From Verrucomicrobiota bacterium (GTDB taxonomy: Bacteria > Verrucomicrobiota > Verrucomicrobiia > Limisphaerales > Palsa-1400), in assembly GCA_049510745.1 (NCBI GenBank), contig JBEKYR010000002.1, positions 32,001 through 96,000 on the forward strand: a DNA stretch of 64,000 nucleotides, given 5' to 3'. The notes below the pieces were generated by a model. The model was not told the DNA's origin. It did no database searches and was given only the letters and a program-made list of their open reading frames with translations. Both the position numbers and the translations under genes were made by a program. Below, piece after piece: positions 1,901 through 14,786 of this stretch. Numbering within the stretch: position 1 is the stretch's first letter; each line of letters opens with the position of its first letter.

Positions 1901-4900
1901 ATGACAACCGCAGACAAGCCCGCGCCAACCGCGCCCCCGCCCCCACCCAAGCGCAAGGTCCCCAATGTGCGCCTGTCTTCCCGCCTGGCTGACGCCGCCC
2001 GCCTGGACGCCCCGGAGGCGTTGCGCCTGCTGGAAACCGGCCCGGAAGGTTTGACGGAAGCGGTCGCGGCGGAGCGCCTGGAGCAAGTCGGCCCGAACGA
2101 AGTCTCCCAGGAAAAACATAACGTCTGGACGGGCCGCCTCTGGCACGCCGTGCGCAATCCGCTGGTCATTCTGCTCACGGTGCTGGCCATCATCAGCTTT
2201 TCCACCGCCCAGGAAACCAGCGATTTCCTCGGCGCCTGGCTCATGGTGGCGATGGTCATCCTCGGCGTGGCGCTGCGCTTCATCCAGGAATCCAAGGCGG
2301 ACTCCGCCGCCGCCAAGTTGAAGGCGATGATCAAGGTCACGGCCACCGTGGTGCGCGACGGCCAGGCCGCGGAGGTCCCCTTGCAGTGCCTGGTGCCGGG
2401 CGACATCGTGAAATTGTCCGCCGGCGATATGATTCCGGCGGATGTGCGCATTCTGACGGCCAAAGATTTGTTCATCATCCAGGCGACGTTGACGGGGGAA
2501 TCGTTGCCGGTGGAAAAGTTCGACACGCGGGAAACGCGGGAGAACATTTCGCCGCTGGAATTTGCCAATCTCTGCTTTTTGGGAACGAGCGTGGAAAGCG
2601 GCGCCGCGCAGGCGCTGGTAGTGGAGACCGGTCCCCGCACTTACCTGGGCGGCATCGCCAGCAGCATGACGACGCAGTTGGTCGAGACGAACTTCGACAA
2701 AGGGATCAAGCGGTTCACGTATCTGATGCTGACGTTCATGCTGATCATGGTTCCGGCGGTCTTCTTTATCAACGCCTTGAGCAAATCGCCCTCGCAGGTG
2801 GCCGACGATGACCTTGTCAAACTCCCTTCGCTGGCTGGCAAACTGGCGGCAAAAGCCGACCCTGTCTCCGCCTTTGTGAGCGAGCAATTGGACGCCGGCA
2901 CCAAGGCTTGCCTGGCGGCCTACCAGGTTTCACCCACCAATAGTGAGGCGCTGGCCGGGATGCTCGTTTCCAACCTGAACCTGATTGTTTCCGGTCCCTC
3001 CATCTATGATCAGAAACGTTTCCAAAATGTCCCGCTGCAGCCGGAAACGAAGTCACGCCTGAAAAACCCGCGCCGCCATGATTTCAGGCTCAACCGGCTG
3101 CTGCTGGAGGACGCTTACCCGGCGGAACTGAAGAAAAGCGGCAAGCATGATTGGGCTGGGGCGTTTCTGTTCGCGCTGGCGGTGGCGGTTGGATTGACGC
3201 CGGAAATGCTGCCGATGATTGTCTCCGTCTGCCTGTCCAAGGGGGCGCTGGCCATGGCGAAGAAAAAAGTCATCGTCAAGCGGCTCAATTCCATCCAGAA
3301 CTTCGGGGCCATGGACGTGCTTTGCACGGACAAGACCGGCACGCTGACCCGCGATCACGTCATCCTGGAAATTCATTGCGACGTTTTCAAAAAGGAGAGC
3401 GACCCCGTTTTGCTGGAGGCCTACCTCATCAGCCATTTCCAGACCGGGCTGAAAAACGTCCTGGATCGCGCGGTGTTGAGCCATCCGGAGGCGCAGCAAA
3501 AACTGTGCATAGACAATTACAGGAAGGTGGACGAAATCCCGTTCGATTTTTCGCGCAAGATGATGTCGGTCATCGTCGAAACGCCGGAGCATGAATACCA
3601 GATTTTGACCAAAGGCGCGCCGGAGGCGGTTTTTGCCCGTTGCACGCAGTTTGAAAGCGAGGGCGAAATTCTGCCCATGGAACCCATTTTGATCGGCGAT
3701 CTCATCCAGGAATACAATGATCTGAGCGCCGACGGATTTCGCGTTCTGGCCGTGGCCTCGCGGAAGCTGGACAAACGGCCCGCTTACTCCAAAGCCGATG
3801 AATCCGAACTCATTCTCAAGGGATACATCGCCTTCCTCGACCCCCCCAAGGAGTCGGCCGGCCAGGCCATCGCCGCCTTGCAGCACAACGGGGTCAGTGT
3901 GAAAGTGCTGACCGGTGACAACGATCTGGTGACGCGCAAAGTCTGCAAAGACGTGGGGCTGGACACGGGCGAAGTGCTGCTCGGCAACGCGGTGGAAGGT
4001 ATGAGCGACGAGCAGCTTTGCCGGGCGGTGGAAACGACGCAGGTTTTCGCGCGGCTTTCCCCAACCCACAAGCAGCGCATCGTCGAGGCCCTGCGCCACA
4101 ACGGCCACGTCGTCGGGTTCATGGGCGACGGCATCAATGACGCTCCCGCCTTGCGCGCCGCCGATGTCGGCCTGTCGGTGGACAACGCGGTGGACATCGC
4201 CAAGGAATCGGCGGACATGATCCTGCTGGAAAAGAACCTGATGGTGCTCGAAGAAGGGGTGCTGGAAGGGCGGAAGGTGTTCATCAACATTCTCAAATAT
4301 ATCCGCATGGGGGCCAGTTCCAACTTTGGCAACATGTTCAGCGTGCTCGGAGCGAGCGCCTTTCTGCCCTATCAGCCCATGCTGCCGATTCAGATTTTGA
4401 CGAACAATCTGCTCTATGATTTTTCGCAGGTCGCCATTCCGACCGACAACGTCAACGTCAACCTCATCGCCAAGCCGCAGCCGTGGGACATGGGTGAGAT
4501 TGCGCGGTTTATTTTATTCATTGGACCGGTCAGTTCGATCTTCGATTACACGACGTTTTTTGTGATGTTGTATCTTTTCCAATGCTGGGCGCCGGCGGGG
4601 GCGGCCCTGTTTCACACCGGCTGGTTTGTGGAATCGCTCATGACCCAGACCCTGATTATTCACGTCATTCGCACACGGCAGATTCCGTTCCTCCAGGCGC
4701 GGGCCAGCACGGCGCTGACGATCACGACGGTGGTCATCATGGCGATCGGGGCGTGGCTGCCCTATTCGCCGCTGGCGCCGATGCTGCAATTCGTGCCGTT
4801 GCCGGCCCTTTTCTGGCCGATTCTATTTTTGACGCTGCTCTGTTACGTGGTACTGACCCAATTGGTCAAGATGTGGCTGATTCGCCGGAGGTGGCTCTGA
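1901..4900 (+). CDS. mgtA: Magnesium-translocating P-type ATPase (P3B) with an extra ~119 aa loop insertion
   Basis: TGES, AVGLTPEMLP, DKTGT, TGD, GDGINDAP, SSNFGNMFS and NNLLYDFSQ motifs. Confidence 0.95.
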   Translation: MTTADKPAPTAPPPPPKRKVPNVRLSSRLADAARLDAPEALRLLETGPEGLTEAVAAERLEQVGPNEVSQEKHNVWTGRLWHAVRNPLVILLTVLAIISFSTAQETSDFLGAWLMVAMVILGVALRFIQESKADSAAAKLKAMIKVTATVVRDGQAAEVPLQCLVPGDIVKLSAGDMIPADVRILTAKDLFIIQATLTGESLPVEKFDTRETRENISPLEFANLCFLGTSVESGAAQALVVETGPRTYLGGIASSMTTQLVETNFDKGIKRFTYLMLTFMLIMVPAVFFINALSKSPSQVADDDLVKLPSLAGKLAAKADPVSAFVSEQLDAGTKACLAAYQVSPTNSEALAGMLVSNLNLIVSGPSIYDQKRFQNVPLQPETKSRLKNPRRHDFRLNRLLLEDAYPAELKKSGKHDWAGAFLFALAVAVGLTPEMLPMIVSVCLSKGALAMAKKKVIVKRLNSIQNFGAMDVLCTDKTGTLTRDHVILEIHCDVFKKESDPVLLEAYLISHFQTGLKNVLDRAVLSHPEAQQKLCIDNYRKVDEIPFDFSRKMMSVIVETPEHEYQILTKGAPEAVFARCTQFESEGEILPMEPILIGDLIQEYNDLSADGFRVLAVASRKLDKRPAYSKADESELILKGYIAFLDPPKESAGQAIAALQHNGVSVKVLTGDNDLVTRKVCKDVGLDTGEVLLGNAVEGMSDEQLCRAVETTQVFARLSPTHKQRIVEALRHNGHVVGFMGDGINDAPALRAADVGLSVDNAVDIAKESADMILLEKNLMVLEEGVLEGRKVFINILKYIRMGASSNFGNMFSVLGASAFLPYQPMLPIQILTNNLLYDFSQVAIPTDNVNVNLIAKPQPWDMGEIARFILFIGPVSSIFDYTTFFVMLYLFQCWAPAGAALFHTGWFVESLMTQTLIIHVIRTRQIPFLQARASTALTITTVVIMAIGAWLPYSPLAPMLQFVPLPALFWPILFLTLLCYVVLTQLVKMWLIRRRWL

Positions 4901-5591
4901 TCCGCCGGGCGGGCGCCGCCGGCTTCAACAACGCCCACTGCAAGCTCAATCCCGGCGCCACTCCGCTCAGGTTCCGCAAATCCACCGGCTTGGCGATGTA
5001 GGCCGCCGCGCCCAGCCGTTTGCTGGTCTGGATGTCGCGGTCGCGGTTCGAAGCGGTCAGGACGACGACAGGAATCGAGGCGGTGCGGGGGTCGGATTTG
5101 ACCCGGCGCAACACCTCCAGCCCGCCCAGCCCCGGCAAACCCAAGTCAAGTAAAATGAGCTGGGGCCGCCGGGTGGGCGGGCGCCCGGCGTAGGCGCCCG
5201 TGCGAAAGAGAAAATCCACGGCGTCCAATCCGTTGCGGATGACCTGCACGCGGTTGGTGATGAATTGGAGGGCCTCCATGGCCAACTCGATGTCGTTCGG
5301 GTTGTCCTCCACGAAGAGAATGTCCACCAATTCCCCGCCCCCGATGCCGGCGCTTCCCGATCCGCCCGGCGGCGCCTGGTAGGCGAAAAGGGTGGCCACG
5401 GAGATTTCGAGGGCGCGGGCCAGCTTTTCGATGCTCTGCAGGGAAACGTTGCGCGCTCCGCGTTCGATATCACAAACATAGGTGCGGTGCAAACCCGCCC
5501 TTCCGGCTAATTCCTCCTGCGAGATGCCCAGGCGGCCTCTCCAGGCTTTGACCGACGTCCCAAACGGTTTTTTTACATCAACTCTTTCCAC
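4866..5591 (-). CDS. XRE/controller-like HTH fused to a response-regulator receiver domain
   Basis: N-terminal SQEELAGRAGLHRTYVCDIERGARNVSL; C-terminal ILFVEDN...LILLDLGLP...YIAKP. Confidence 0.85.
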   Translation of the reverse strand: MERVDVKKPFGTSVKAWRGRLGISQEELAGRAGLHRTYVCDIERGARNVSLQSIEKLARALEISVATLFAYQAPPGGSGSAGIGGGELVDILFVEDNPNDIELAMEALQFITNRVQVIRNGLDAVDFLFRTGAYAGRPPTRRPQLILLDLGLPGLGGLEVLRRVKSDPRTASIPVVVLTASNRDRDIQTSKRLGAAAYIAKPVDLRNLSGVAPGLSLQWALLKPAAPARRIRATSGESATS

Positions 5592-5630
5592 AAGCGTGTC
5601 CTTTGCTCCCAGATGATAACAACCCTCACA

Positions 5631-5644
5631 ACAGACTATGAGTG
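5631..5644 (-). promoter_or_regulatory. C-box-like operator (CACTCATAGTCTGT) upstream of the controller-like HTH gene
   Basis: Matches the ACTCATAGTC(TGT) half of PvuII-type C-boxes, about 40 nt upstream of the start. Confidence 0.5.
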
Positions 5645-5877
5645 ACGGCTCGTTAAAATTGTCCCGACGCTTTGTTTCGCCCCTGAAGATTCATCGTTCC
5701 CCCGGGGACCCAGATAAACTCAACTCGATCATCTGACAACAGAAACGTTACGATAAAGCGAGCGGGAAATCCAGAAAAAAATTCGCTCTTTTCCTGCCGC
5801 CCGCGCGCGGCAAGGCCAGGGCCGGTGCCGGCGGTCGCGGCTCGACAGCGTCCGGGCCTGGCGATAGAATCCAGAAG

Positions 5878-6102
5878 ATGGAAAGCGCTCAAGATGAAGC
5901 ATCGGCCCTGCCGCGCCAATGGCTGGAGGAATTTGAAGCCGCCGCCCGCCGTCCCCTGGAAACGCGCTTTCGTTATTCCTTTATTCACACCTACAAACCG
6001 GTGTTGGACGACGCCCCGTATCGCGCCTTTGACACCATGGAAGACTACCGCCGCTGGTGCGAGGCCAACCTTCCCGACTGGCTCGGCTATGGCCGCGTTT
6101 GA
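5878..6102 (+). CDS. Small hypothetical protein, putative partner of the downstream nucleotidyltransferase
   Basis: 74 aa, host-like codon usage, overlaps the start of the next gene. Confidence 0.7.
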   Translation: MESAQDEASALPRQWLEEFEAAARRPLETRFRYSFIHTYKPVLDDAPYRAFDTMEDYRRWCEANLPDWLGYGRV

Positions 6103-6559
6103 TTACCGCCAAGCCGAGGAAATCCGTGATGTCTTCCGCGCCCATCACGTTCGCTACCTTTTTCTCGGCAAGTCGGGGGCCATTCTGTTGGGCTATCCCG
6201 ACACGACGCAGGACGCCGACCTTTTTGTCCAACGGTCGGCTGAAAACGGAAACGCTCTGGTGGGCGCGCTCCGCCAGTTGGGTTTTGCCCTGACAGATCA
6301 ACAGGCTGGCGAAATCATGCGCGGCAAGGATTTCGTCCAGTTGAAGAACGGCCCGTTCGATTTGGACCTGGTGTTTGCTCCCGATGGAATTGAGCGATTT
6401 GAGGATGCCTGGCGCCGGCGGGTCGATGTGGAAGGATTTCCCGTCTGCCACATCGACGACATAATCGCCAGCAAGGCGGCAAGCAACCGGCAGAAGGACC
6501 GTGAGTCCCTGCCCCGCCTGCGTTCGTTCCGCGAGTATTGGATCAAATCGCGGAAATGA
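6089..6559 (+). CDS. Nucleotidyltransferase-fold protein (DUF6036/AbiEii-like)
   Basis: Start MAAFDYRQ; GKSGAILLG..TTQDADLF (G-x-DxD) and C-terminal KAASNRQKD. Confidence 0.7.
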   Translation: MAAFDYRQAEEIRDVFRAHHVRYLFLGKSGAILLGYPDTTQDADLFVQRSAENGNALVGALRQLGFALTDQQAGEIMRGKDFVQLKNGPFDLDLVFAPDGIERFEDAWRRRVDVEGFPVCHIDDIIASKAASNRQKDRESLPRLRSFREYWIKSRK

Positions 6560-8540: not shown

Positions 8541-9707
8541 ATGAAAACCCTGCACCTCTACCTGACCCGCCAAATGCTGGCGACGTTGGGCATGACGGTG
8601 TTCGTGGTGACGTTTGTTCTGCTGCTGGGCAACGTCATCAAGGAAATCCTCAACCTGCTGGTCAACCGCCAGGCCACACTGAGCCTGGCCCTGCACGGCA
8701 TCCTGCTGCTGATACCCTACGTTCTGGCCTTCTCGCTGCCCATCGGGATGCTCACGGCGGCCTTGCTGGTTTTTGGGCGGTTCAGCGCGGACCAGGAATT
8801 GATGGCGGCGCGCGCCAGCGGGATCAGCCTGGTCAGCCTGATCACGCCGATCCTGCTGCTGAGCGTGGCGGTCAGCGGCTTGTGCGCGTGGCTCAACTTC
8901 GACATCGCCCCGGCCAGCCGGATGGCTTACAAGGAACTGCTCTTCCGCGCCTCGGCCAAAAATCCGTCCGACATCCTGCGCCCCGGCGAGCCGGTGCCGT
9001 TGGGCAATTACACCATTTTGGTCGGCAAAAAGGACGGAACCAACCTGGAAAACGTCATCGTCACCAAATGGACGCGCACGGGCGAACTGAAGGAATGGCT
9101 GCAAGGCCCAACCGGAACGCTGTTCTCCGATCCGGCCCGCAAACAAATCATTCTGACGGTGCATTCGGCCCAAGGCTGGTTCCACGAAACCAACGGGTGG
9201 GAGCCGAAATTGTCCGGGGGCGACCCGCAAATCCCGCTGGAAATCGAGTCGCAGGCGCAGACGATGCTGGCGGTGCCGCCCAGTGACATGACCTTCCACC
9301 AATTGCGCGCGGAGCTGGAACGATTGCAGCGGCCCCTGGCCAACCCCGCGCCGCCGGCCCGCCCGCAGAGCGGGGCCGTGAAAGGCGAGCGCGAGGTCCG
9401 GCAAATTGTCGAAGACATAACCACGCCGGTGATGGTGTACATGCACCGCGAAGTGGCGTTTTCGTTTGCGTGCATTGGTTTTACGCTGGTGGGGATTCCG
9501 CTGGGCATCCGGGCGCACCGGCGCGAGACCAGCGCGGGGGTGGCCATCGCGCTGGTGTTGATGCTCATTTATTACAGCTTCGTGGTGCTGGCCCAGGCGT
9601 GGGTCGGCCATCCCGAACGCGCCCCGTACCTGATCGTCTGGCTGCCGAACTTCATTTTCCAGGCGGTGGGCGCGGTGCTGCTCTGGCGGGCAAACCGGCG
9701 CGGGTGA
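8541..9707 (+). CDS. lptF: LptF/LptG family LPS export permease
   Basis: YLTRQML, GRFSADQELMAARASGIS, GIPLG and WLPN motifs; 3+3 TM layout. Confidence 0.85.
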   Translation: MKTLHLYLTRQMLATLGMTVFVVTFVLLLGNVIKEILNLLVNRQATLSLALHGILLLIPYVLAFSLPIGMLTAALLVFGRFSADQELMAARASGISLVSLITPILLLSVAVSGLCAWLNFDIAPASRMAYKELLFRASAKNPSDILRPGEPVPLGNYTILVGKKDGTNLENVIVTKWTRTGELKEWLQGPTGTLFSDPARKQIILTVHSAQGWFHETNGWEPKLSGGDPQIPLEIESQAQTMLAVPPSDMTFHQLRAELERLQRPLANPAPPARPQSGAVKGEREVRQIVEDITTPVMVYMHREVAFSFACIGFTLVGIPLGIRAHRRETSAGVAIALVLMLIYYSFVVLAQAWVGHPERAPYLIVWLPNFIFQAVGAVLLWRANRRG

Positions 9708-9858
9708 GATTATTGAAAATATAAGAATGAGTGAATCAGTGAATGAGTGAGTGGAGCAGGGAAGGCGGATGGACCGATGGCCAAGGGTGCGGGCCACAGA
9801 TGAACACGGATGAACGCAGCGCGGCAGCCGCAACCCAGACCTGCCCAGAGGAAATTGA

Positions 9859-9945
9859 CTCGCGCAGAGGCGCAGAGGGCGCAGAGGAATATCAAGAAGA
9901 AAAGCGATTCATGATTTTCTCTGCGCCTCTGCGGCTCTGCGCGAG
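9859..9945. repeat. Inverted repeat of 9-nt-period units (CGCAGAG.. / ..CTCTGCG)
   Basis: ctcgcgcagaggcgcagagggcgcagag at 9859-9886 pairs with ctctgcgcctctgcggctctgcgcgag at 9919-9945. Confidence 0.75.
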
Positions 9946-10266
9946 AAAATCTCGTTGGAAATGCGCGATTTTTCACTATAGTGGTGCATGCTTTTCCCGA
10001 GACTTCGCTCGGGAAACGAGGCTTCGCAGCCGGCATCCTGCGACCGGCTTGTTTTCGTTGCGACCAACATGTTGGTCTTAGTTTTTGGATAGCAGAACAG
10101 ATTGACTAAAAGACCATGCGCTTGAACTCGACTTTGGTCGCGCCGGCTTGATGGAATTGGCAAGGGTTTTCCCAGTGGCGGCAAGGAACGACCTAGTGGC
10201 GGGCGACCCTCGCAGAAGGTATAAAGGCACTTGCGTGTCTCACCAACCCGCGGGTGCGGATTGGGC

Positions 10267-10309
10267 GGAGTCTGGATACGCTCAATATCCGGACTCCGTT
10301 TTGTTTTTA
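10267..10309 (+). terminator. Intrinsic terminator
   Basis: GGAGTCTGGATA-N7-TATCCGGACTCC stem followed by GTTTTGTTTTT. Confidence 0.7.
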
Positions 10310-10410
10310 CGGGTTGGAAGCGAATCAGTGAGTGGAGCAAGGAATGCTATCGCATACACCCATCAATTGGTAGCAGGCGGGGCGTTCGTGCCAAAAAACT
10401 ACTGATAAGG

Positions 10411-11013
10411 CTACCCTTTTGTGAATGGCTTCGCATCTTCGTCCTGAGTCAAGCGGCTGAACTGCGGGCCAATCGCCCTGTAATACTTCCGTTGCCGTCC
10501 GGTGTAAGGCTGCTTCACCGCAGGCTCAACATCTCGCAGGACTAATTGAGCGATGCGCACGCCGGGAAACAAATCGAGTGGCATCGTTCCAACATTCGAT
10601 AGTTCCAGAGTTACCACGCCGCTGAAACCGGGCTCAATGCACGTAGCCGTAGCAATTTGAAGCCCCACTCGAGACCAGGATGAGCGCCCTTCAACTTGCC
10701 CTTCCAAATCCGAGGGCATCTGGAGATATTCAAATGTGCAACCTAACGCTAACTGGCCAGGATGCAGCACAAACTTATGTCCAAATCTCACTACTCGTCG
10801 CTCCTGAAGGCTGCGCAACTGAATATCCGACAGCACGAACGGGTTGAGCGATTCCCCCATGTGCATGCGGAAAACTATGAATTGATTGCCAAGACGCAGA
10901 TCAACTGAAATGTCTCCAAACTGCTTCGGTGACAAAATCGGCGTAATCACGAGCTGCTTTGCATCAGTTTCCCGCAACCTCGATTCAATTCTCTCTTTGC
11001 TGAGTGTGCTCAT
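10411..11013 (-). CDS. dcd: dCTP deaminase (trimeric Dcd/dUTPase fold)
   Basis: SVDLRLG, EGRSSWSRVGL, IEPGFSGVVTLEL and PGVRIAQL motifs. Confidence 0.92.
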   Translation of the reverse strand: MSTLSKERIESRLRETDAKQLVITPILSPKQFGDISVDLRLGNQFIVFRMHMGESLNPFVLSDIQLRSLQERRVVRFGHKFVLHPGQLALGCTFEYLQMPSDLEGQVEGRSSWSRVGLQIATATCIEPGFSGVVTLELSNVGTMPLDLFPGVRIAQLVLRDVEPAVKQPYTGRQRKYYRAIGPQFSRLTQDEDAKPFTKG

Positions 11014-12478
11014 GTTCGGAGATAGATTTGATCTCTGGCCCGAATTTCGTCTGGACGTAGCTCACCTCGATGGCTTTGAGAACCAATCGAAACAGATCAT
11101 CAAAATTACTCGGCGTTCCCCAACTGGGGTTTTCCTCCAGGCGCAAGCAACTGTACGCCCAAGCGGCGTTCCAAATGTCAGCTATCGCAGCCGGTGCCAT
11201 ATCCGGCCACGTCCCTGTCTCGTTCGGAGGGATTCCCTGCTTTAACCTCAGCACGAGCTCGTGGATGACTCCCAAGTTTTGCTTGAGTTGATACGGAGCT
11301 TGTGATTCCGTCGGAAGGAACGTTAACACTTCCTCTTGAACAGCAGGCCAGTTCTGCTGGATCACCTTGTACGCCTCGAGCGTGCGGATGTCGGCGTTTA
11401 TTTCCAGGACATCGTCATTCTCGGAAGCCAAATCCCGCACTTTCTGTAGAAAGCGAACATATGGGAGAATCAAGGCACGGTATTCTGAATTACCGGCGAA
11501 ACAATCCTCTTCAACCAAATCCTTGGTGACTACTTCTGATATCGTGCGTAACCGCATGCGCCAAGGAGGATAACGACCACAGGCACACGGATTGGCATCG
11601 AGCTTGAATCGAACAGAAAACTCGCCGAGACAAGCAAGAGCCGCCGGCCCCAACAAATGCGCGCCAACAAAGTCGCTGATTAATTCTTTGAAACCGGAAC
11701 GAGTCAATTCCATCGTCTCCTTCATCGTTTCAGAGACGTACTGGTCCCGGTAAATTTTTTTTAACAACTCCTCCTGAGGACTCCTGTTGGCGTTCTCATA
11801 GTTCATCTTGATTCTATGTTGGATGACGTCCTTCGCCTGTGCCCAAAGGCCATCAAACTCAGCAGTCAGCCAGTCAGTAGCAAGAATGTGCCCAACTTCG
11901 TGTCCCCAGTTGACATGCATCAATACGTTCATTCGTTCAACACGCGGAAACGAAATGCAATAGATGCGGCACTTACCGCTTTCACCGACAGCCTGCTCCC
12001 AATCAGAAAGCGGCATCCACTTACCCAAAGAGGCAAAGCAGGCTCTCAAAGTCTCGACGAACGCCCCCTTGATGCTATAGTTATAAGACCATTGCGGCCG
12101 CAAAATAAAGCAGCACTCCTTAGGAGTATGCTGTTTAAGAAATGCCTCGGTTGCCTGGACCATACTCCACGGCGTTTGCTCAATTCGAGAACGTTCGGCA
12201 AAGCGGAGGTGCTCTCCCATGCTCCGTAAGATGGCGTAAATATAAGGGAGTTTCTGTACGGGGGCGGAATCGAGTCTTACGCCTACCAACGCGGCCGTGC
12301 GGCCTATTAGCTGGCAGAAAGTGACAGCAGTTTCCGTAGGGTAATCCTCCGCCTCCTCTAGCCTCGCTGCCAATTGCTCCAAGCTACTGGCGTGGCGAAA
12401 CAACTCTCGTCTGAGGGTCGCACTACGCCAATCCTCGTTTTGGTCGGCGGGTTTACCATCTTTAGAAGTACTGGCCAT
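10985..12478 (-). CDS. Uncharacterised HEXXH zincin-like protein
   Basis: GHEVGH, downstream ELISDFVG and YPPWRMR; lower GC than the host; overlaps the dcd start by 29 nt. Confidence 0.75.
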   Translation of the reverse strand: MASTSKDGKPADQNEDWRSATLRRELFRHASSLEQLAARLEEAEDYPTETAVTFCQLIGRTAALVGVRLDSAPVQKLPYIYAILRSMGEHLRFAERSRIEQTPWSMVQATEAFLKQHTPKECCFILRPQWSYNYSIKGAFVETLRACFASLGKWMPLSDWEQAVGESGKCRIYCISFPRVERMNVLMHVNWGHEVGHILATDWLTAEFDGLWAQAKDVIQHRIKMNYENANRSPQEELLKKIYRDQYVSETMKETMELTRSGFKELISDFVGAHLLGPAALACLGEFSVRFKLDANPCACGRYPPWRMRLRTISEVVTKDLVEEDCFAGNSEYRALILPYVRFLQKVRDLASENDDVLEINADIRTLEAYKVIQQNWPAVQEEVLTFLPTESQAPYQLKQNLGVIHELVLRLKQGIPPNETGTWPDMAPAAIADIWNAAWAYSCLRLEENPSWGTPSNFDDLFRLVLKAIEVSYVQTKFGPEIKSISEHEHTQQREN

Positions 12479-12507
12479 TTGCCAAAGAAAGAGAACGCTC
12501 GCTCCGA

Positions 12508-12996
12508 CTAGGTTGAGTTCGCCACGAAAAGTTCATTATCTCTCGGTAAGCCGTTATCCGTGAGCTGCATCAGAAGACGTTGAGATAGCTCCGATAAGAG
12601 TGCGGATGCAAGTTGCAGCTTATCCGAGGGTAAAACACCCTTGCCTTTTGATCCGCCCCTAATCAAGAACTGGTATAATCTGCGGAGGAATTCCACGACC
12701 TCGTTTTCCCGCTCTAGACCTGCCTCACGCATCCGTCGCTCGATGCCAATTAATGCCGCATAAAAAGTGGGCCGCACCTCCGTCGCCTGAACCGCCAAGT
12801 TGCCAATACTTCCAGCACCATTAGAACTACCGGCAGTCCAATCTACCTGATTCAAGAATCCCCCAGCCCATACAAGAAGCTCGCGGTCGGTCGAAGTCGT
12901 CGGCTGTCCTTTGCTTAGTTTGCTTAACACGGTAGCGGCAGAGTCAAGTCTGCTGCTCACTTCAAAAAGACGAGATGATTCAATTAAATCTGCCAT
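12508..12996 (-). CDS. Hypothetical helical protein, first gene of the dcd operon
   Basis: ORF in a lower-GC island, GAAGGAG RBS before ATG 12996, 29 nt gap to the next gene. Confidence 0.75.
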   Translation of the reverse strand: MADLIESSRLFEVSSRLDSAATVLSKLSKGQPTTSTDRELLVWAGGFLNQVDWTAGSSNGAGSIGNLAVQATEVRPTFYAALIGIERRMREAGLERENEVVEFLRRLYQFLIRGGSKGKGVLPSDKLQLASALLSELSQRLLMQLTDNGLPRDNELFVANST

Positions 12997-13742
12997 AGTC
13001 GCTCCTTCCACGCTCAGATATTAACCTCATTTCTCTAGTCCGTCACTTCTAATGCACCCGACATACTTTGCCATAGCCGGTGCCCGTTCATCACCAGATG
13101 CGGCTTCCGTGCTCATGCTTGGGCGGATTTAAGCATTGATTTCGTGAGAAATCGGACTTCAGGGCCACAATACATAGTGTTAATCTAATGTCAAGCCCCA
13201 ATTTGTGGGGTTTTTGCTCTATTGCAGCAAATGCTGCCAGATGCGAGGAGGGCTTGTCAAGCCGCCGCTACAACACGCAATGGCACAACCTTCGCCGCCG
13301 CCCTATTCTGCCGAGTCGCTTTTGCCGCTTTCACGGCCTCCGGTGTGACGCCGAACCGCTTTTCCGATTCGATTTGGCTGGTCGAGTTCGGGTCAAACTG
13401 TGCTGCGCTGGCCGCCATATCACCCCATTCGACCCGCCTTGTCGCTGCTGGGTACCTGAGGAAGACGCTCTGCTGGGCTCGATGCTGGACGAGGTGTCAG
13501 CCAGACCAGAATGGCGCTCAGATAAGGGATAAAGCTCGCCAAATCGTTTATCGATAGGATCTTATGATGGGCGTGAAGCTCGATCAACAAAACTGTGAAT
13601 ATCGCCGCAGAACAATCTCCGCCGACGCCGCCGGCGAGTGCGACCAGAACGGCCGCACTCCCCAAAAAAGTCGCCAAGGATTCGGGTTTTTCGCGCAAGG
13701 GAAGGTTTGACTTGGCGGGTCGGTAAACTTAGAGTGAAATGC

Positions 13743-14786
13743 ATGTTGGCTGCTGAAACCAGTCGGGTTGCCGTCCCCATCAGTTCACCGCCGCCGCAAA
13801 CCTCGGGCTGGAAAGAGATTGCGGAAGCGGTGGAACCGTTTCTGCAAAGCGTGGCCCGGCGTCTGGAGGCGCAAACGGCGGAGTTCGAGCCGCAAATCGC
13901 CGATTTCGCCCGGTATGCCCTGACCGCCCAGGGCAAGCAGCTTCGCCCCATCCTGGTCTCGCTTTGCGGCGAGGCGGTCGGGAGGCTCAATGAATCGCAT
14001 CTGACGGTGGCGGTGATCATTGAAATGATCCACCTGGCGACGCTGGTGCATGACGACGTGATCGACGAGGGGCAGTTGCGGCGGGGCCGGCTGACGCTGG
14101 CGGCCAATTGGGGCAATGAGATTTCCGTGCTGCTGGGCGACTGCCTGTTCGCGCACGCGCTCAAACTGTCGGCCAGCTTCCCCACGCCCGAGATTTGCCG
14201 GGCGGTGTCGGCGGCGACCAACACGGTTTGCGCCGGGGAGATACTGCAAAGCCGTTCGCGGGGGGATTTTGGCGTGACGCGCGGGCAGTATTTCAAGATG
14301 CTGGCGATGAAGACGGGGGAATTGTTCGCGTTGTCCTGCGATCTGGGGGCGCACTTGAGCGAGGCGACATCCGCGCGGCGCCAGGCCCTCCGGCAATACG
14401 GGCTGGCTCTGGGCACGGCTTACCAACTTTACGATGACTGCCTGGATGTGCTCGGCTCGGAGGCCGCCGCCGGCAAAACACTCGGCGCGGACCTGGCCAA
14501 GGGGAAAATGACGCTGCCCATCCTGGTGGTGCGCGACCGCGCCAGCGCGGAGGACCAGTTGCGGTTGCGCCTTTGGCTGGCCAACTGGGAACCGGGCTTC
14601 CTGGCGGGTGTGGTGGAATTGATCGTCAAGTACGACGCTTTTACCGAGTCGCGGGCCATCCTGCAGCAATACCTTGTGGCGGCCCGGCAGGCGTTGACGA
14701 CGTTGCCGCCGTCGGAGGGCCGGGCGGGGCTGATGGGCTTGACACACTTTCTTGCGGAACAAACCGAGGCCCTGGGGGTTTACTAG
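13743..14786 (+). CDS. Polyprenyl diphosphate synthase (IspB/HepT family)
   Basis: GKQLRP, HLATLVHDDVID..LRRG, KTG and YQLYDDCLD motifs. Confidence 0.93.
   Translation: MLAAETSRVAVPISSPPPQTSGWKEIAEAVEPFLQSVARRLEAQTAEFEPQIADFARYALTAQGKQLRPILVSLCGEAVGRLNESHLTVAVIIEMIHLATLVHDDVIDEGQLRRGRLTLAANWGNEISVLLGDCLFAHALKLSASFPTPEICRAVSAATNTVCAGEILQSRSRGDFGVTRGQYFKMLAMKTGELFALSCDLGAHLSEATSARRQALRQYGLALGTAYQLYDDCLDVLGSEAAAGKTLGADLAKGKMTLPILVVRDRASAEDQLRLRLWLANWEPGFLAGVVELIVKYDAFTESRAILQQYLVAARQALTTLPPSEGRAGLMGLTHFLAEQTEALGVY

What the first reader, a model, noticed from the sequence alone, without database searches (positions are those of the whole stretch)
10411..12996. Horizontally acquired three-gene operon: unknown protein + HEXXH zincin + trimeric dCTP deaminase (candidate new defence or nucleotide-depletion system)
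Seen: three tightly coupled minus-strand genes (29-nt gap, 29-nt overlap) in a visibly lower-GC block between core genes lptF and the polyprenyl synthase. The Dcd keeps its RSS and TLE catalytic motifs. The 497 aa protein has HEVGH, a downstream E-x-x-x-D and YPP..R, an M48/gluzincin-like layout. Known: dCTP depletion is an antiphage strategy, but described defensive deaminases (e.g. AvcD) are zinc CDA-fold enzymes, not trimeric Dcd. Inference: a metalloprotease-like sensor or regulator plus a small helical partner controls a Dcd effector that depletes dCTP or generates dUTP on infection. I know of no named system with this architecture.
Basis: partly seen in the sequence, partly recalled or inferred. 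Interest (0 to 1): 0.85.

Follow-up and report, generated by a model that had tools for sequence, protein, structure and literature searches.

The report
Mobile protease plus dCTP deaminase cassette
Three genes that travel together between distant bacteria pair an unnamed zinc protease and a small helical protein with a dedicated version of an enzyme that destroys the DNA building block dCTP; this is probably an undescribed anti-virus system, but nobody has tested it.

Summary
The three genes form a conserved mobile cassette. Among 99 distinct zincin loci, dcd follows the zincin in 82 of 83 informative cases (fused in 5) and the small gene precedes it in 83 of 85; the three trees agree. It occurs in about ten phyla, is absent from most relatives, and is lower in GC than its flanks in 50 of 54 loci. 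The zincin is an unnamed M48-like family with invariant metal ligands. The Dcd forms its own branch: deaminase residues invariant, feedback loop altered, tail extended. Defence neighbours (RM, BREX, DISARM, Druantia, Hma) occur at 12 of 45 loci versus 0 of 20 other dcd loci, but only after I removed housekeeping look-alikes (blind count 17/45 vs 6/20); 3 of 5 new loci followed the fixed rule. One homologue fuses an AvcD-like kinase; distant zincins sit in Argonaute-Cas4 operons. Best reading: protease-gated dCTP-depletion defence (0.4). Rival: Dcd signals and the protease kills (0.25). No function is shown. I found no description in ten paper searches; this scan noted a similar module once, in Bathyarchaeia.

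The parts
13167..13194 (-). sigma-70-like promoter match (TTGACA, 16 nt, TATTGT) about 170 nt upstream of the first gene
   Evidence: 10 of 12 matches; 4 sites found in the region against 2.5 expected, so a consensus match only
12508..12996 (-). small all-helical protein (162 aa) of no known family; candidate inhibitor or protease substrate (inferred)
   Evidence: (pLDDT 82); upstream of the zincin in 83 of 85 informative clusters
10985..12478 (-). unnamed M48-like gluzincin (497 aa): N-terminal helical bundle, HEXXH 193-197, E265/D269, YPPxRxR 303-309, helical C-terminal part
   Evidence: pLDDT 94; H188, H193, E194, H197, E265, D269, P304, R309 in 60 of 60
10411..11013 (-). dUTPase-fold (trimeric-type) dCTP deaminase of a cassette-specific branch
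   Evidence: S111, R115, E137 in 60 of 60
10263..10301 (.). 16-pair hairpin 110 nt beyond the dcd stop; scored as terminator-like on the + strand; a role in ending the operon is inferred only
8541..9707 (+). lptF, flanking core gene (not part of the cassette)
   Evidence: PF03739 E 1.8e-61
13758..14786 (+). polyprenyl synthetase, flanking core gene (not part of the cassette)
   Evidence: PF00348 E 3e-63

Best explanation
A mobile anti-phage cassette that works like AvcD but is built from unrelated parts. Shown: the three genes are inherited as one unit; the Dcd keeps its deaminase residues; the zincin keeps a full metal site. Inferred: in uninfected cells the Dcd is held off by the small helical protein and/or its own conserved C-terminal tail, in a complex with the zincin (natural fusions would tie a zincin to each Dcd subunit). 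On infection the zincin is switched on and cuts the inhibitor. The freed Dcd turns dCTP into dUTP, which starves phage replication of dCTP. In hosts such as this one, where no dUTPase was found but uracil-DNA glycosylases were, it would also load new phage DNA with uracil.
For: Linkage: dcd in 82 of 83, small gene in 83 of 85 informative clusters, 5 fused; 5 of 5 further full-length zincins found by a profile search without motif filter also have dcd, 2 fused. Co-evolution over 60 triplets: Spearman 0.95, 0.88, 0.85; 24 and 27 of 35 well-supported zincin splits recur in the Dcd and small-protein trees. The 73 cassette Dcds lie on one side of a branch (SH-aLRT 97, quick tree) against 34 other Dcds; their tail is 13 residues longer at the median, GP[QEM]F occurs in 63 of 73, and the usual KYxxQ in 0 of 73 against 30 of 34. 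The HVTA feedback loop of PMC4827122 (passages) reads (I/V)ATA, one residue shorter, His-free in 65 of 65 parsed. Defence context: 12 of 45 loci versus 0 of 20 controls, p 0.007; 3 of 5 new loci lie next to Hma or type I RM; one cassette lies inside DISARM, one directly after brxL, one between DruE and a type IIG enzyme. In L237 the Dcd is fused to a P-loop domain that hits PADLOC's defensive dCTPase model (E 5.8e-13). dCTP depletion is a proven defence (passages of 10.1101/2021.04.26.441389 and 10.1101/2021.03.31.437871); protease-gated effectors have precedent (PMC13434031 passages). Host: no trimeric Dut over cut-off, no dimeric dUTPase, two UDG hits (genome 94% complete).
Against: Counting every PADLOC hit at E<=1e-30 gives 17 of 45 versus 6 of 20, p 0.38. 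The significant figure needs housekeeping look-alikes removed, which I did by judgement after seeing the hits, and the controls are related genomes of one phylum. 33 of 45 loci, and this window's own copy, have no strong defence neighbour. The short His-free loop also occurs in PDB 4XJC and three non-cassette Dcds, so it does not prove loss of dTTP feedback. The zincin also occurs without dcd (L034; Argonaute loci L182, L240), which fits the protease being the effector. No substrate, trigger, enzyme activity or phage phenotype is shown.
Confidence: 0.4

Rival explanations
1. Defence system with the roles reversed. The Dcd is the sensor or signal maker: it turns an infection-swollen dCTP pool into dUTP, or binds a phage-modified dCTP. 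The zincin is the killing effector that cleaves an essential host protein, as Lit does (recalled). The small protein is its inhibitor.
For: Distant relatives of the zincin, each beside a small helical ORF, sit in Cas4-Argonaute operons without dcd: L182 (pAgo_II E 6e-269, hhalign 92% over 256 columns) and L240 (pAgo_II E 7e-33, with an HNH gene). The protease is then the constant part and the partner varies. L034 has zincin and an upstream ORF but no dcd. The nearest named Atlas clusters are M48/U49 (score 0.78, a lead only). Kongming uses a deaminated dNTP as signal (abstracts; passage). The scan's note e1-2109085 places a similar module beside a dead Argonaute (not tested).
Against: The small ORFs of the Argonaute loci show no detectable homology to this one. 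No Argonaute lies beside any of my 115 cassette loci. None of 94 zincins hits Pfam U49 at E<=0.05. Invariant Dcd catalytic residues and the AvcD-like kinase fusion fit bulk deamination at least as well.
Confidence: 0.25
2. A selfish toxin-antitoxin-like or stress/dormancy module: the Dcd or the zincin is a toxin held by the small protein, and the module is kept by addiction or stress arrest rather than by phage defence.
For: Many loci lie between housekeeping genes with no defence neighbour (33 of 45; this window). The module is compact, low in GC and patchy.
Against: No match in 72,556 plasmids. Insertion inside or against DISARM, BREX, Druantia, Hma and type I RM is what defence cargo does. 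The two readings are not exclusive.
Confidence: 0.15
3. Metabolic accessory: a horizontally acquired Dcd supplies dUMP for dTTP synthesis in lineages without dcd, and the zincin and small protein only regulate or chaperone it.
For: It is the only Dcd over the cut-off here; the genome has thymidylate synthase; 6 of 10 other hosts have no second Dcd over the cut-off.
Against: 33 of 40 relatives have no Dcd over the cut-off. 4 of 10 hosts already have another Dcd. The 20 control dcd loci show no strict defence neighbour, and in 401 phylum genomes cassette-type Dcd occurs only with the zincin. The motif-3 aspartate site is Asp in only 9 of 60, and no dUTPase was found in this host, so the product would be harmful dUTP.
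Confidence: 0.08

Closest known systems
AvcD / defensive dCTP deaminase (Tal et al. preprint 10.1101/2021.04.26.441389; Hsueh et al. preprint 10.1101/2021.03.31.437871; passages read)
   Same: Predicted chemistry (dCTP deamination), a deaminase with an altered feedback site, an inhibitor candidate encoded directly upstream; one cassette homologue even carries a related P-loop kinase domain.
   Different: AvcD is a zinc CDA-fold enzyme with an N-terminal kinase and an RNA inhibitor. This Dcd has the dUTPase fold, no kinase in the window's copy, a protein upstream and an obligatory zincin. No PADLOC hit for the window's proteins.
Housekeeping Dcd and bifunctional Dcd-Dut (PDB 1XS1, 2QXX, 4XJC)
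   Same: TIGR02274 above cut-off; Ser, Arg and Glu of the deaminase site align.
   Different: Own branch, RS[ST]W.R motif, (I/V)ATA loop, mostly Glu at the Asp site, longer conserved tail, found only with the zincin.
Peptidase M48 (ZMPSTE24, PDB 6BH8) and Lit/U49 gluzincins
   Same: HEXXH, a downstream E-x-x-x-D and a proline-arginine segment; 4 of 94 members hit PF01435 weakly (best E 4.8e-5); ZMPSTE24 aligns over residues 80-314 (Z 6.6, rmsd 7.5, 181 aligned).
   Different: The window's protein hits no Pfam or NCBIfam model; Tyr-Pro-Pro stands where the Argonaute-linked relative has His-Pro; extra helical domains at both ends.
Kongming and protease-gated systems (HamM/Canu pairs, type IV Thoeris, CapH/CapP)
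   Same: Logic only: a deaminated nucleotide as signal, or a protease that unlocks or acts as the effector (PMC13434031 and PMC12799240, passages).
   Different: No shared components: those use adenosine deaminase/HAM1/SIR2, or trypsin-like or caspase proteases with nucleases.
DS-4 and predicted dUTPase-containing nucleotide-modification systems (DefensePredictor, PMC13092281, passages)
   Same: dUTPase-fold proteins predicted in defence; the paper says none of those was validated.
   Different: Its main text has no 'dCTP', 'Dcd' or 'HEXXH'; supplements not read.

Membership tests
dCTP deaminase (TIGR02274) | score above curated cut-off | tested here: met
   146.1 bits against 92.8
dCTP deaminase (TIGR02274) | deaminase-site Ser, Arg and Glu (their role is recalled; positions aligned to PDB 1XS1) | tested here: met
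   S111, R115, E137 align and are in 60 of 60 cassette Dcds
dCTP deaminase (TIGR02274) | HVTA-type allosteric loop for dTTP feedback (PMC4827122) | tested here: inconclusive
   His absent and loop one residue shorter, but PDB 4XJC has a loop of the same length
dCTP deaminase (TIGR02274) | trimer and dCTP-to-dUTP activity | not testable with these tools
   needs purified enzyme
Bifunctional Dcd-Dut | conserved motif-3 aspartate (catalytic in dUTPases per PMC4827122; its role in Dcd-Dut is recalled) | tested here: not met
   Glu127 here; over 60 cassette Dcds Glu 37, Asp 9, other 14
AvcD / defensive dCTP deaminase | zinc-dependent CDA-fold deaminase domain | tested here: not met
   Pfam DCD/dUTPase fold, no PADLOC hit at E<=1
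AvcD / defensive dCTP deaminase | fused P-loop kinase | tested here: not met
   absent from the 200-aa protein; present C-terminally in one homologue, L237
AvcD / defensive dCTP deaminase | upstream inhibitory RNA | not tested
   the upstream element here is a conserved protein gene; the 5' region was not searched for RNAs
Gluzincin metallopeptidase | HEXXH plus a distal Glu ligand on a later helix | tested here: met
   H193, E194, H197, E265, D269 invariant in 94 of 94; both on predicted helices
Peptidase M48 (PF01435) | Pfam gathering score | tested here: not met
   no family for the window's protein at E<=1; 4 of 94 members hit weakly
Peptidase M48 (PF01435) | M48 fold | tested here: inconclusive
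   ZMPSTE24 Z 6.6, rmsd 7.5 over 181 residues, within the range of common arrangements; the domain was not folded alone
Lit / Peptidase U49 | PF10463 match; EF-Tu cleavage (recalled) | tested here: inconclusive
   0 of 94 at E<=0.05; Atlas neighbour at 0.78 only; activity not testable
Named defence system in PADLOC-DB 2.0 | model match for any of the three proteins | tested here: not met
   0 families for all three and for the homologues scanned, except the kinase part of the L237 Dcd
Anti-phage system (any) | enrichment beside known defence genes | tested here: inconclusive
   12/45 vs 0/20 with look-alikes removed, 17/45 vs 6/20 blind; 3 of 5 out of sample
Anti-phage system (any) | protection against phage | not testable with these tools
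   needs plaque assays

The most novel reading that the evidence does not exclude
dUTP, or a phage-modified dCTP bound by the Dcd trimer, is an immune signal that switches on a new family of metalloprotease effectors. The same protease family is wired to Argonaute-Cas4 sensors in other genomes, which would make it a plug-in death module for different sensors and make a pyrimidine counterpart of Kongming.
Probability: 0.2. Interest if true: 0.92.

Novelty: new variant of a known kind. Interest (0 to 1): 0.72.

Why it matters
If the best reading holds, bacteria evolved dCTP-depletion immunity twice from unrelated folds, and a textbook housekeeping enzyme was turned into a protease-gated weapon; no dUTPase-fold protein had been validated in defence according to PMC13092281. 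It also names an unannotated protease family of at least 547 representatives at 50% identity. The cassette is 2.6 kb, has two clear catalytic sites to mutate and occurs in a cultured strain (Aporhodopirellula rubra CECT 8075), so the question is directly testable.

Tried and rejected
Family libraries gave nothing for the zincin or the small protein. Foldseek against PDB and BFVD gave no match at E<=0.001 for the zincin (a phage 'zincin protease' at E 0.4 only) or the small protein; VIA's best for the small protein was Z 7.0, generic helical bundles. PDB sequence searches with the zincin profiles gave only helical noise. No zincin match in plasmids, phages or IMG/VR (the one viral hit was a 17-residue motif match with no zincin). 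No fusion of 927-2645 aa was found, weak evidence. The second near-length homologue search mostly returned the same proteins. The complex predictor was not available, so binding between the three proteins is untested. No RNA holder was listed. The joint 11168-13633 rests on 22 letters and was set aside; no contig showed the cassette skipped. No integrase or att-like direct repeat brackets the cassette; the repeats at 9718-10347 recur across the genome. 'Loss of the His loop proves loss of feedback' was rejected because of 4XJC. An ancestral lptF-polyprenyl synthase empty site was not found. Paper searches returned no paper; others returned listings, none describing this operon by title or abstract start; PMC3239186, PMC7824862, PMC6299218 and PMC10733785 were searched for terms and the passages did not describe it. 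Two papers asked for were not held (the journal version of Tal et al.; Burroughs et al. 2015, PMC4678834).
Full report
Observation. The block has GC 0.514 against 0.603 for the genome; 0.9% of 2,131 windows of that length are as low, and GC3 is 0.50-0.58 against 0.79-0.85 in rpsA, lptF, the polyprenyl synthase and the sigma factor. Contigs from other studies cover 9754-13058 and 11997-13886 with no difference. In 8 of 8 relatives the genes after lptF differ and the polyprenyl synthase is not within the 12 kb read, so the site is variable and no empty-site allele is shown.

The Dcd. It scores 146 bits on TIGR02274 and aligns to E. coli, M. tuberculosis and other solved Dcds. It is the only Dcd over the cut-off in this 94%-complete genome. 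It is not the lineage's housekeeping copy: 7 of 40 relatives have a Dcd over the cut-off, 0 of 2 in the same genus, and one of the 7 is itself in a divergent cassette. In 401 genomes of the phylum, only the two with a strong zincin hit have a cassette-type Dcd (274 and 292 bits; all others 127 or less). Four of 10 other cassette hosts have a second Dcd over the cut-off. In a quick maximum-likelihood tree, 73 cassette Dcds are one side of a branch (SH-aLRT 97) against 34 others from relatives and the phylum; the careful search did not finish and the tree is unrooted. S111, W113, R115, A123 and E137 are in 60 of 60. The loop that carries dTTP feedback, HVTA in PMC4827122 (passages), reads mostly IATA or VATA and lacks His in 65 of 65 parsed; 17 more could not be parsed. 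PDB 4XJC has a loop of the same length, so deregulation is only a possibility. The aspartate site is Glu in 37 and Asp in 9 of 60, which argues for dUTP rather than dUMP as product (role of this residue in Dcd-Dut recalled). The tail is longer (median 64 against 51 residues after the catalytic Glu) with a conserved GP[QEM]F and a later aromatic residue.

The zincin. No Pfam, NCBIfam or PADLOC model matches. It has 104 close homologues among the 8,000 candidates scored and 547 representatives at 50% identity; names given are 'hypothetical protein'. H193, E194, H197, E265, D269 and R309 are invariant in 94 diverse members. The AlphaFold model is confident (pLDDT 94). The only zincin among the 50 structural rows shown is ZMPSTE24 (Z 6.6, rmsd 7.5, 181 residues, model 80-314), 4 of 94 members hit Peptidase_M48 weakly, and the nearest named Atlas clusters are M48/U49 at 0.78. 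I read it as an unnamed M48-like gluzincin with an intact site; proteolysis is inferred.

The small protein. Twenty-eight upstream ORFs align at 26% mean column identity with no invariant residue, which suits a binding protein rather than an enzyme (inference). The model is a helical bundle (pLDDT 82) with no specific structural match.

The cassette. A motif scan of 185,579 species genomes gave 33 loci and a metagenome scan 130, of which 80 were kept. The window's Dcd alone, by tblastn, hits 30 of the 33 genome loci. I pooled 115 loci (leaving out L039 and L070, weak distant hits, and L151, no zincin) into 99 clusters at 95% identity; one is identical to the window's copy. dcd follows in 82 of 83 clusters with enough downstream DNA (16 uninformative) and the small gene precedes in 83 of 85 (14 uninformative); 5 are zincin-Dcd fusions. 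The small-protein profile was built from 28 of these loci, so that count is partly circular. A profile search without motif filter in 401 Acidobacteriota genomes gave 15 with a match; the 5 new ones at E<=1e-19 all have dcd, 2 fused. In 401 Pseudomonadota only the starting genome matched strongly. Hosts carry labels of ten bacterial phyla and one archaeal bin on a 2.9-kb contig that may be misassigned. The cassette is lower in GC than its flanks in 50 of 54 loci, by 8 points on average. Distances in the three trees correlate (0.95, 0.88, 0.85 over 60 triplets; the shuffles ignore kinship).

Is it defence? PADLOC scans of flanking ORFs (129, 130 and 150 proteins; the last 150 of 168) found strong hits at 12 of 45 loci with at least 4 kb of flank: type I and III RM, type IIG with DruE, BREX, Druantia, DISARM (cassette between drmMI and drmA), PD-Lambda-1, RmrA, CapP, Septu-like and PDC candidates; 10 of 45 without the PDC-only ones. 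Twenty other dcd loci of the phylum (258 ORFs) gave 0. Fisher p is 0.007 and 0.018. But I excluded housekeeping look-alikes (ABC, RtcR, DinG, PolA, IscS, Lon, MzaA, WYL) after seeing them; counted blind the figures are 17 of 45 and 6 of 20, p 0.38, and the controls are kin. With the rule then fixed, 3 of 5 new loci lie against Hma or type I RM. A ubiquitin-like E1/JAB operon with CapH/CapP-like genes recurs at L008, L027, L236 and L240. The window's own copy lies between core genes; I did not scan the rest of the window with PADLOC. I put defence at about 0.65-0.7.

Two variants bear on mechanism. In L237 the cassette Dcd is fused to a P-loop domain that hits PADLOC's defensive dCTPase model (E 5.8e-13), echoing the kinase of AvcD; this is one case. 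In L182 and L240 a shorter, distant zincin (hhalign 92%; the two match each other at E 3e-14) with an adjacent small ORF sits in a Cas4-Argonaute operon without dcd; those small ORFs are not detectably homologous to ours. The first favours Dcd as effector, the second the protease as effector.

Mechanism. Best reading (0.4): a protease-gated dCTP-depletion defence. The small protein or the Dcd tail keeps the Dcd off; infection activates the zincin; dCTP becomes dUTP; phage replication stalls, and uracil may enter phage DNA because this host shows no dUTPase but two UDG hits. Lack of dUTPase is common in prokaryotes (PMC5122711 passages). Every step after 'the genes travel together and keep their catalytic residues' is inferred. 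Rivals: Dcd as sensor or signal maker and zincin as killer (0.25); toxin-antitoxin or stress module (0.15); metabolic accessory (0.08).

Comparison and novelty. It would work like AvcD (preprints 10.1101/2021.04.26.441389 and 10.1101/2021.03.31.437871, passages) but fails membership: another fold, no kinase here, a protein partner and a zincin. Ten paper searches and term look-ups in PMC13092281, PMC13434031, PMC12799240, PMC6299218, PMC3239186, PMC7824862 and PMC10733785 (passages only) found no description. The library lacks most subscription papers, and I read no supplements; those of DefensePredictor and of comparative-genomics surveys could list the operon. I could not reach those genomes, and found no Argonaute beside my 115 loci. 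Other notes gave me the lead to DefensePredictor and a label for the unrelated cassette at L002.

Verdict. A real, widespread but rare, unannotated three-gene system with a dedicated Dcd branch and a new gluzincin family; probably defensive, mechanism open, easy to test. Interest 0.72; new variant of a known kind, with a one-in-five chance of a new signalling principle.

Noticed in passing
L002 (G000:C15:24304-27690): A second, unrelated cassette in this genome: thymidylate-synthase-like genes, a papain-like peptidase, a Dcd-like protein with a hydrophobic tail and a kinase-like P-loop protein. Earlier scan notes describe such cassettes as DS-4-like; not checked.
   Followed up: partly
L003:1357-2625: A 422-aa ORF with a weak Dcd-like N-terminal part and an ankyrin-like segment; the join looks odd and may be a frameshift or chimera.
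   Followed up: no
L053 (G000:C12:28085-28393): Zinc deaminase domain fused to a RecG-C/ATPase-like domain in a 615-aa open frame.
   Followed up: no
whole genome G000: No trimeric or dimeric dUTPase over cut-off, but two UDG-family genes and thymidylate synthase.
   Followed up: partly
L237:5337-6650 (-): Cassette Dcd fused to a C-terminal P-loop kinase-like domain that hits the defensive dCTPase model; no small upstream gene was picked there; a subtilase follows here and in L235.
   Followed up: partly
L182:8226-13213 and L240:5901-11836: Cas4 + Argonaute + small helical ORF + distant zincin, followed by HerA-like/integrase or HNH genes: a possibly undescribed Argonaute subtype.
   Followed up: partly
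L008, L027, L236, L240: A multi-ubiquitin/E2, JAB-E1 operon with HTH and CapP-like genes recurs next to these zincin loci.
   Followed up: partly
L034:2509-4478: Zincin with an upstream ORF but no dcd: the one exception among informative loci.
   Followed up: partly
P0098: A 498-aa protein joining a zincin lacking its C-terminal part to a Dcd lacking its first 63 residues; may be a deletion or assembly artefact.
   Followed up: no
L183 (G163:C39:214000-230000): TIR-rich gene cluster with SLOG, amidase, lipase and astacin-like genes, and a 637-aa protein that weakly hits the zincin profile.
   Followed up: no
window 9718-10347: Short repeats and palindromes that recur at many places in the genome (REP-like) between lptF and the cassette.
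   Followed up: partly
window 4866-6559: An HTH-receiver fusion gene and a 74-aa ORF with a nucleotidyltransferase-like neighbour (weak RlaP hit, E 0.1), possibly a toxin-antitoxin pair.
   Followed up: no
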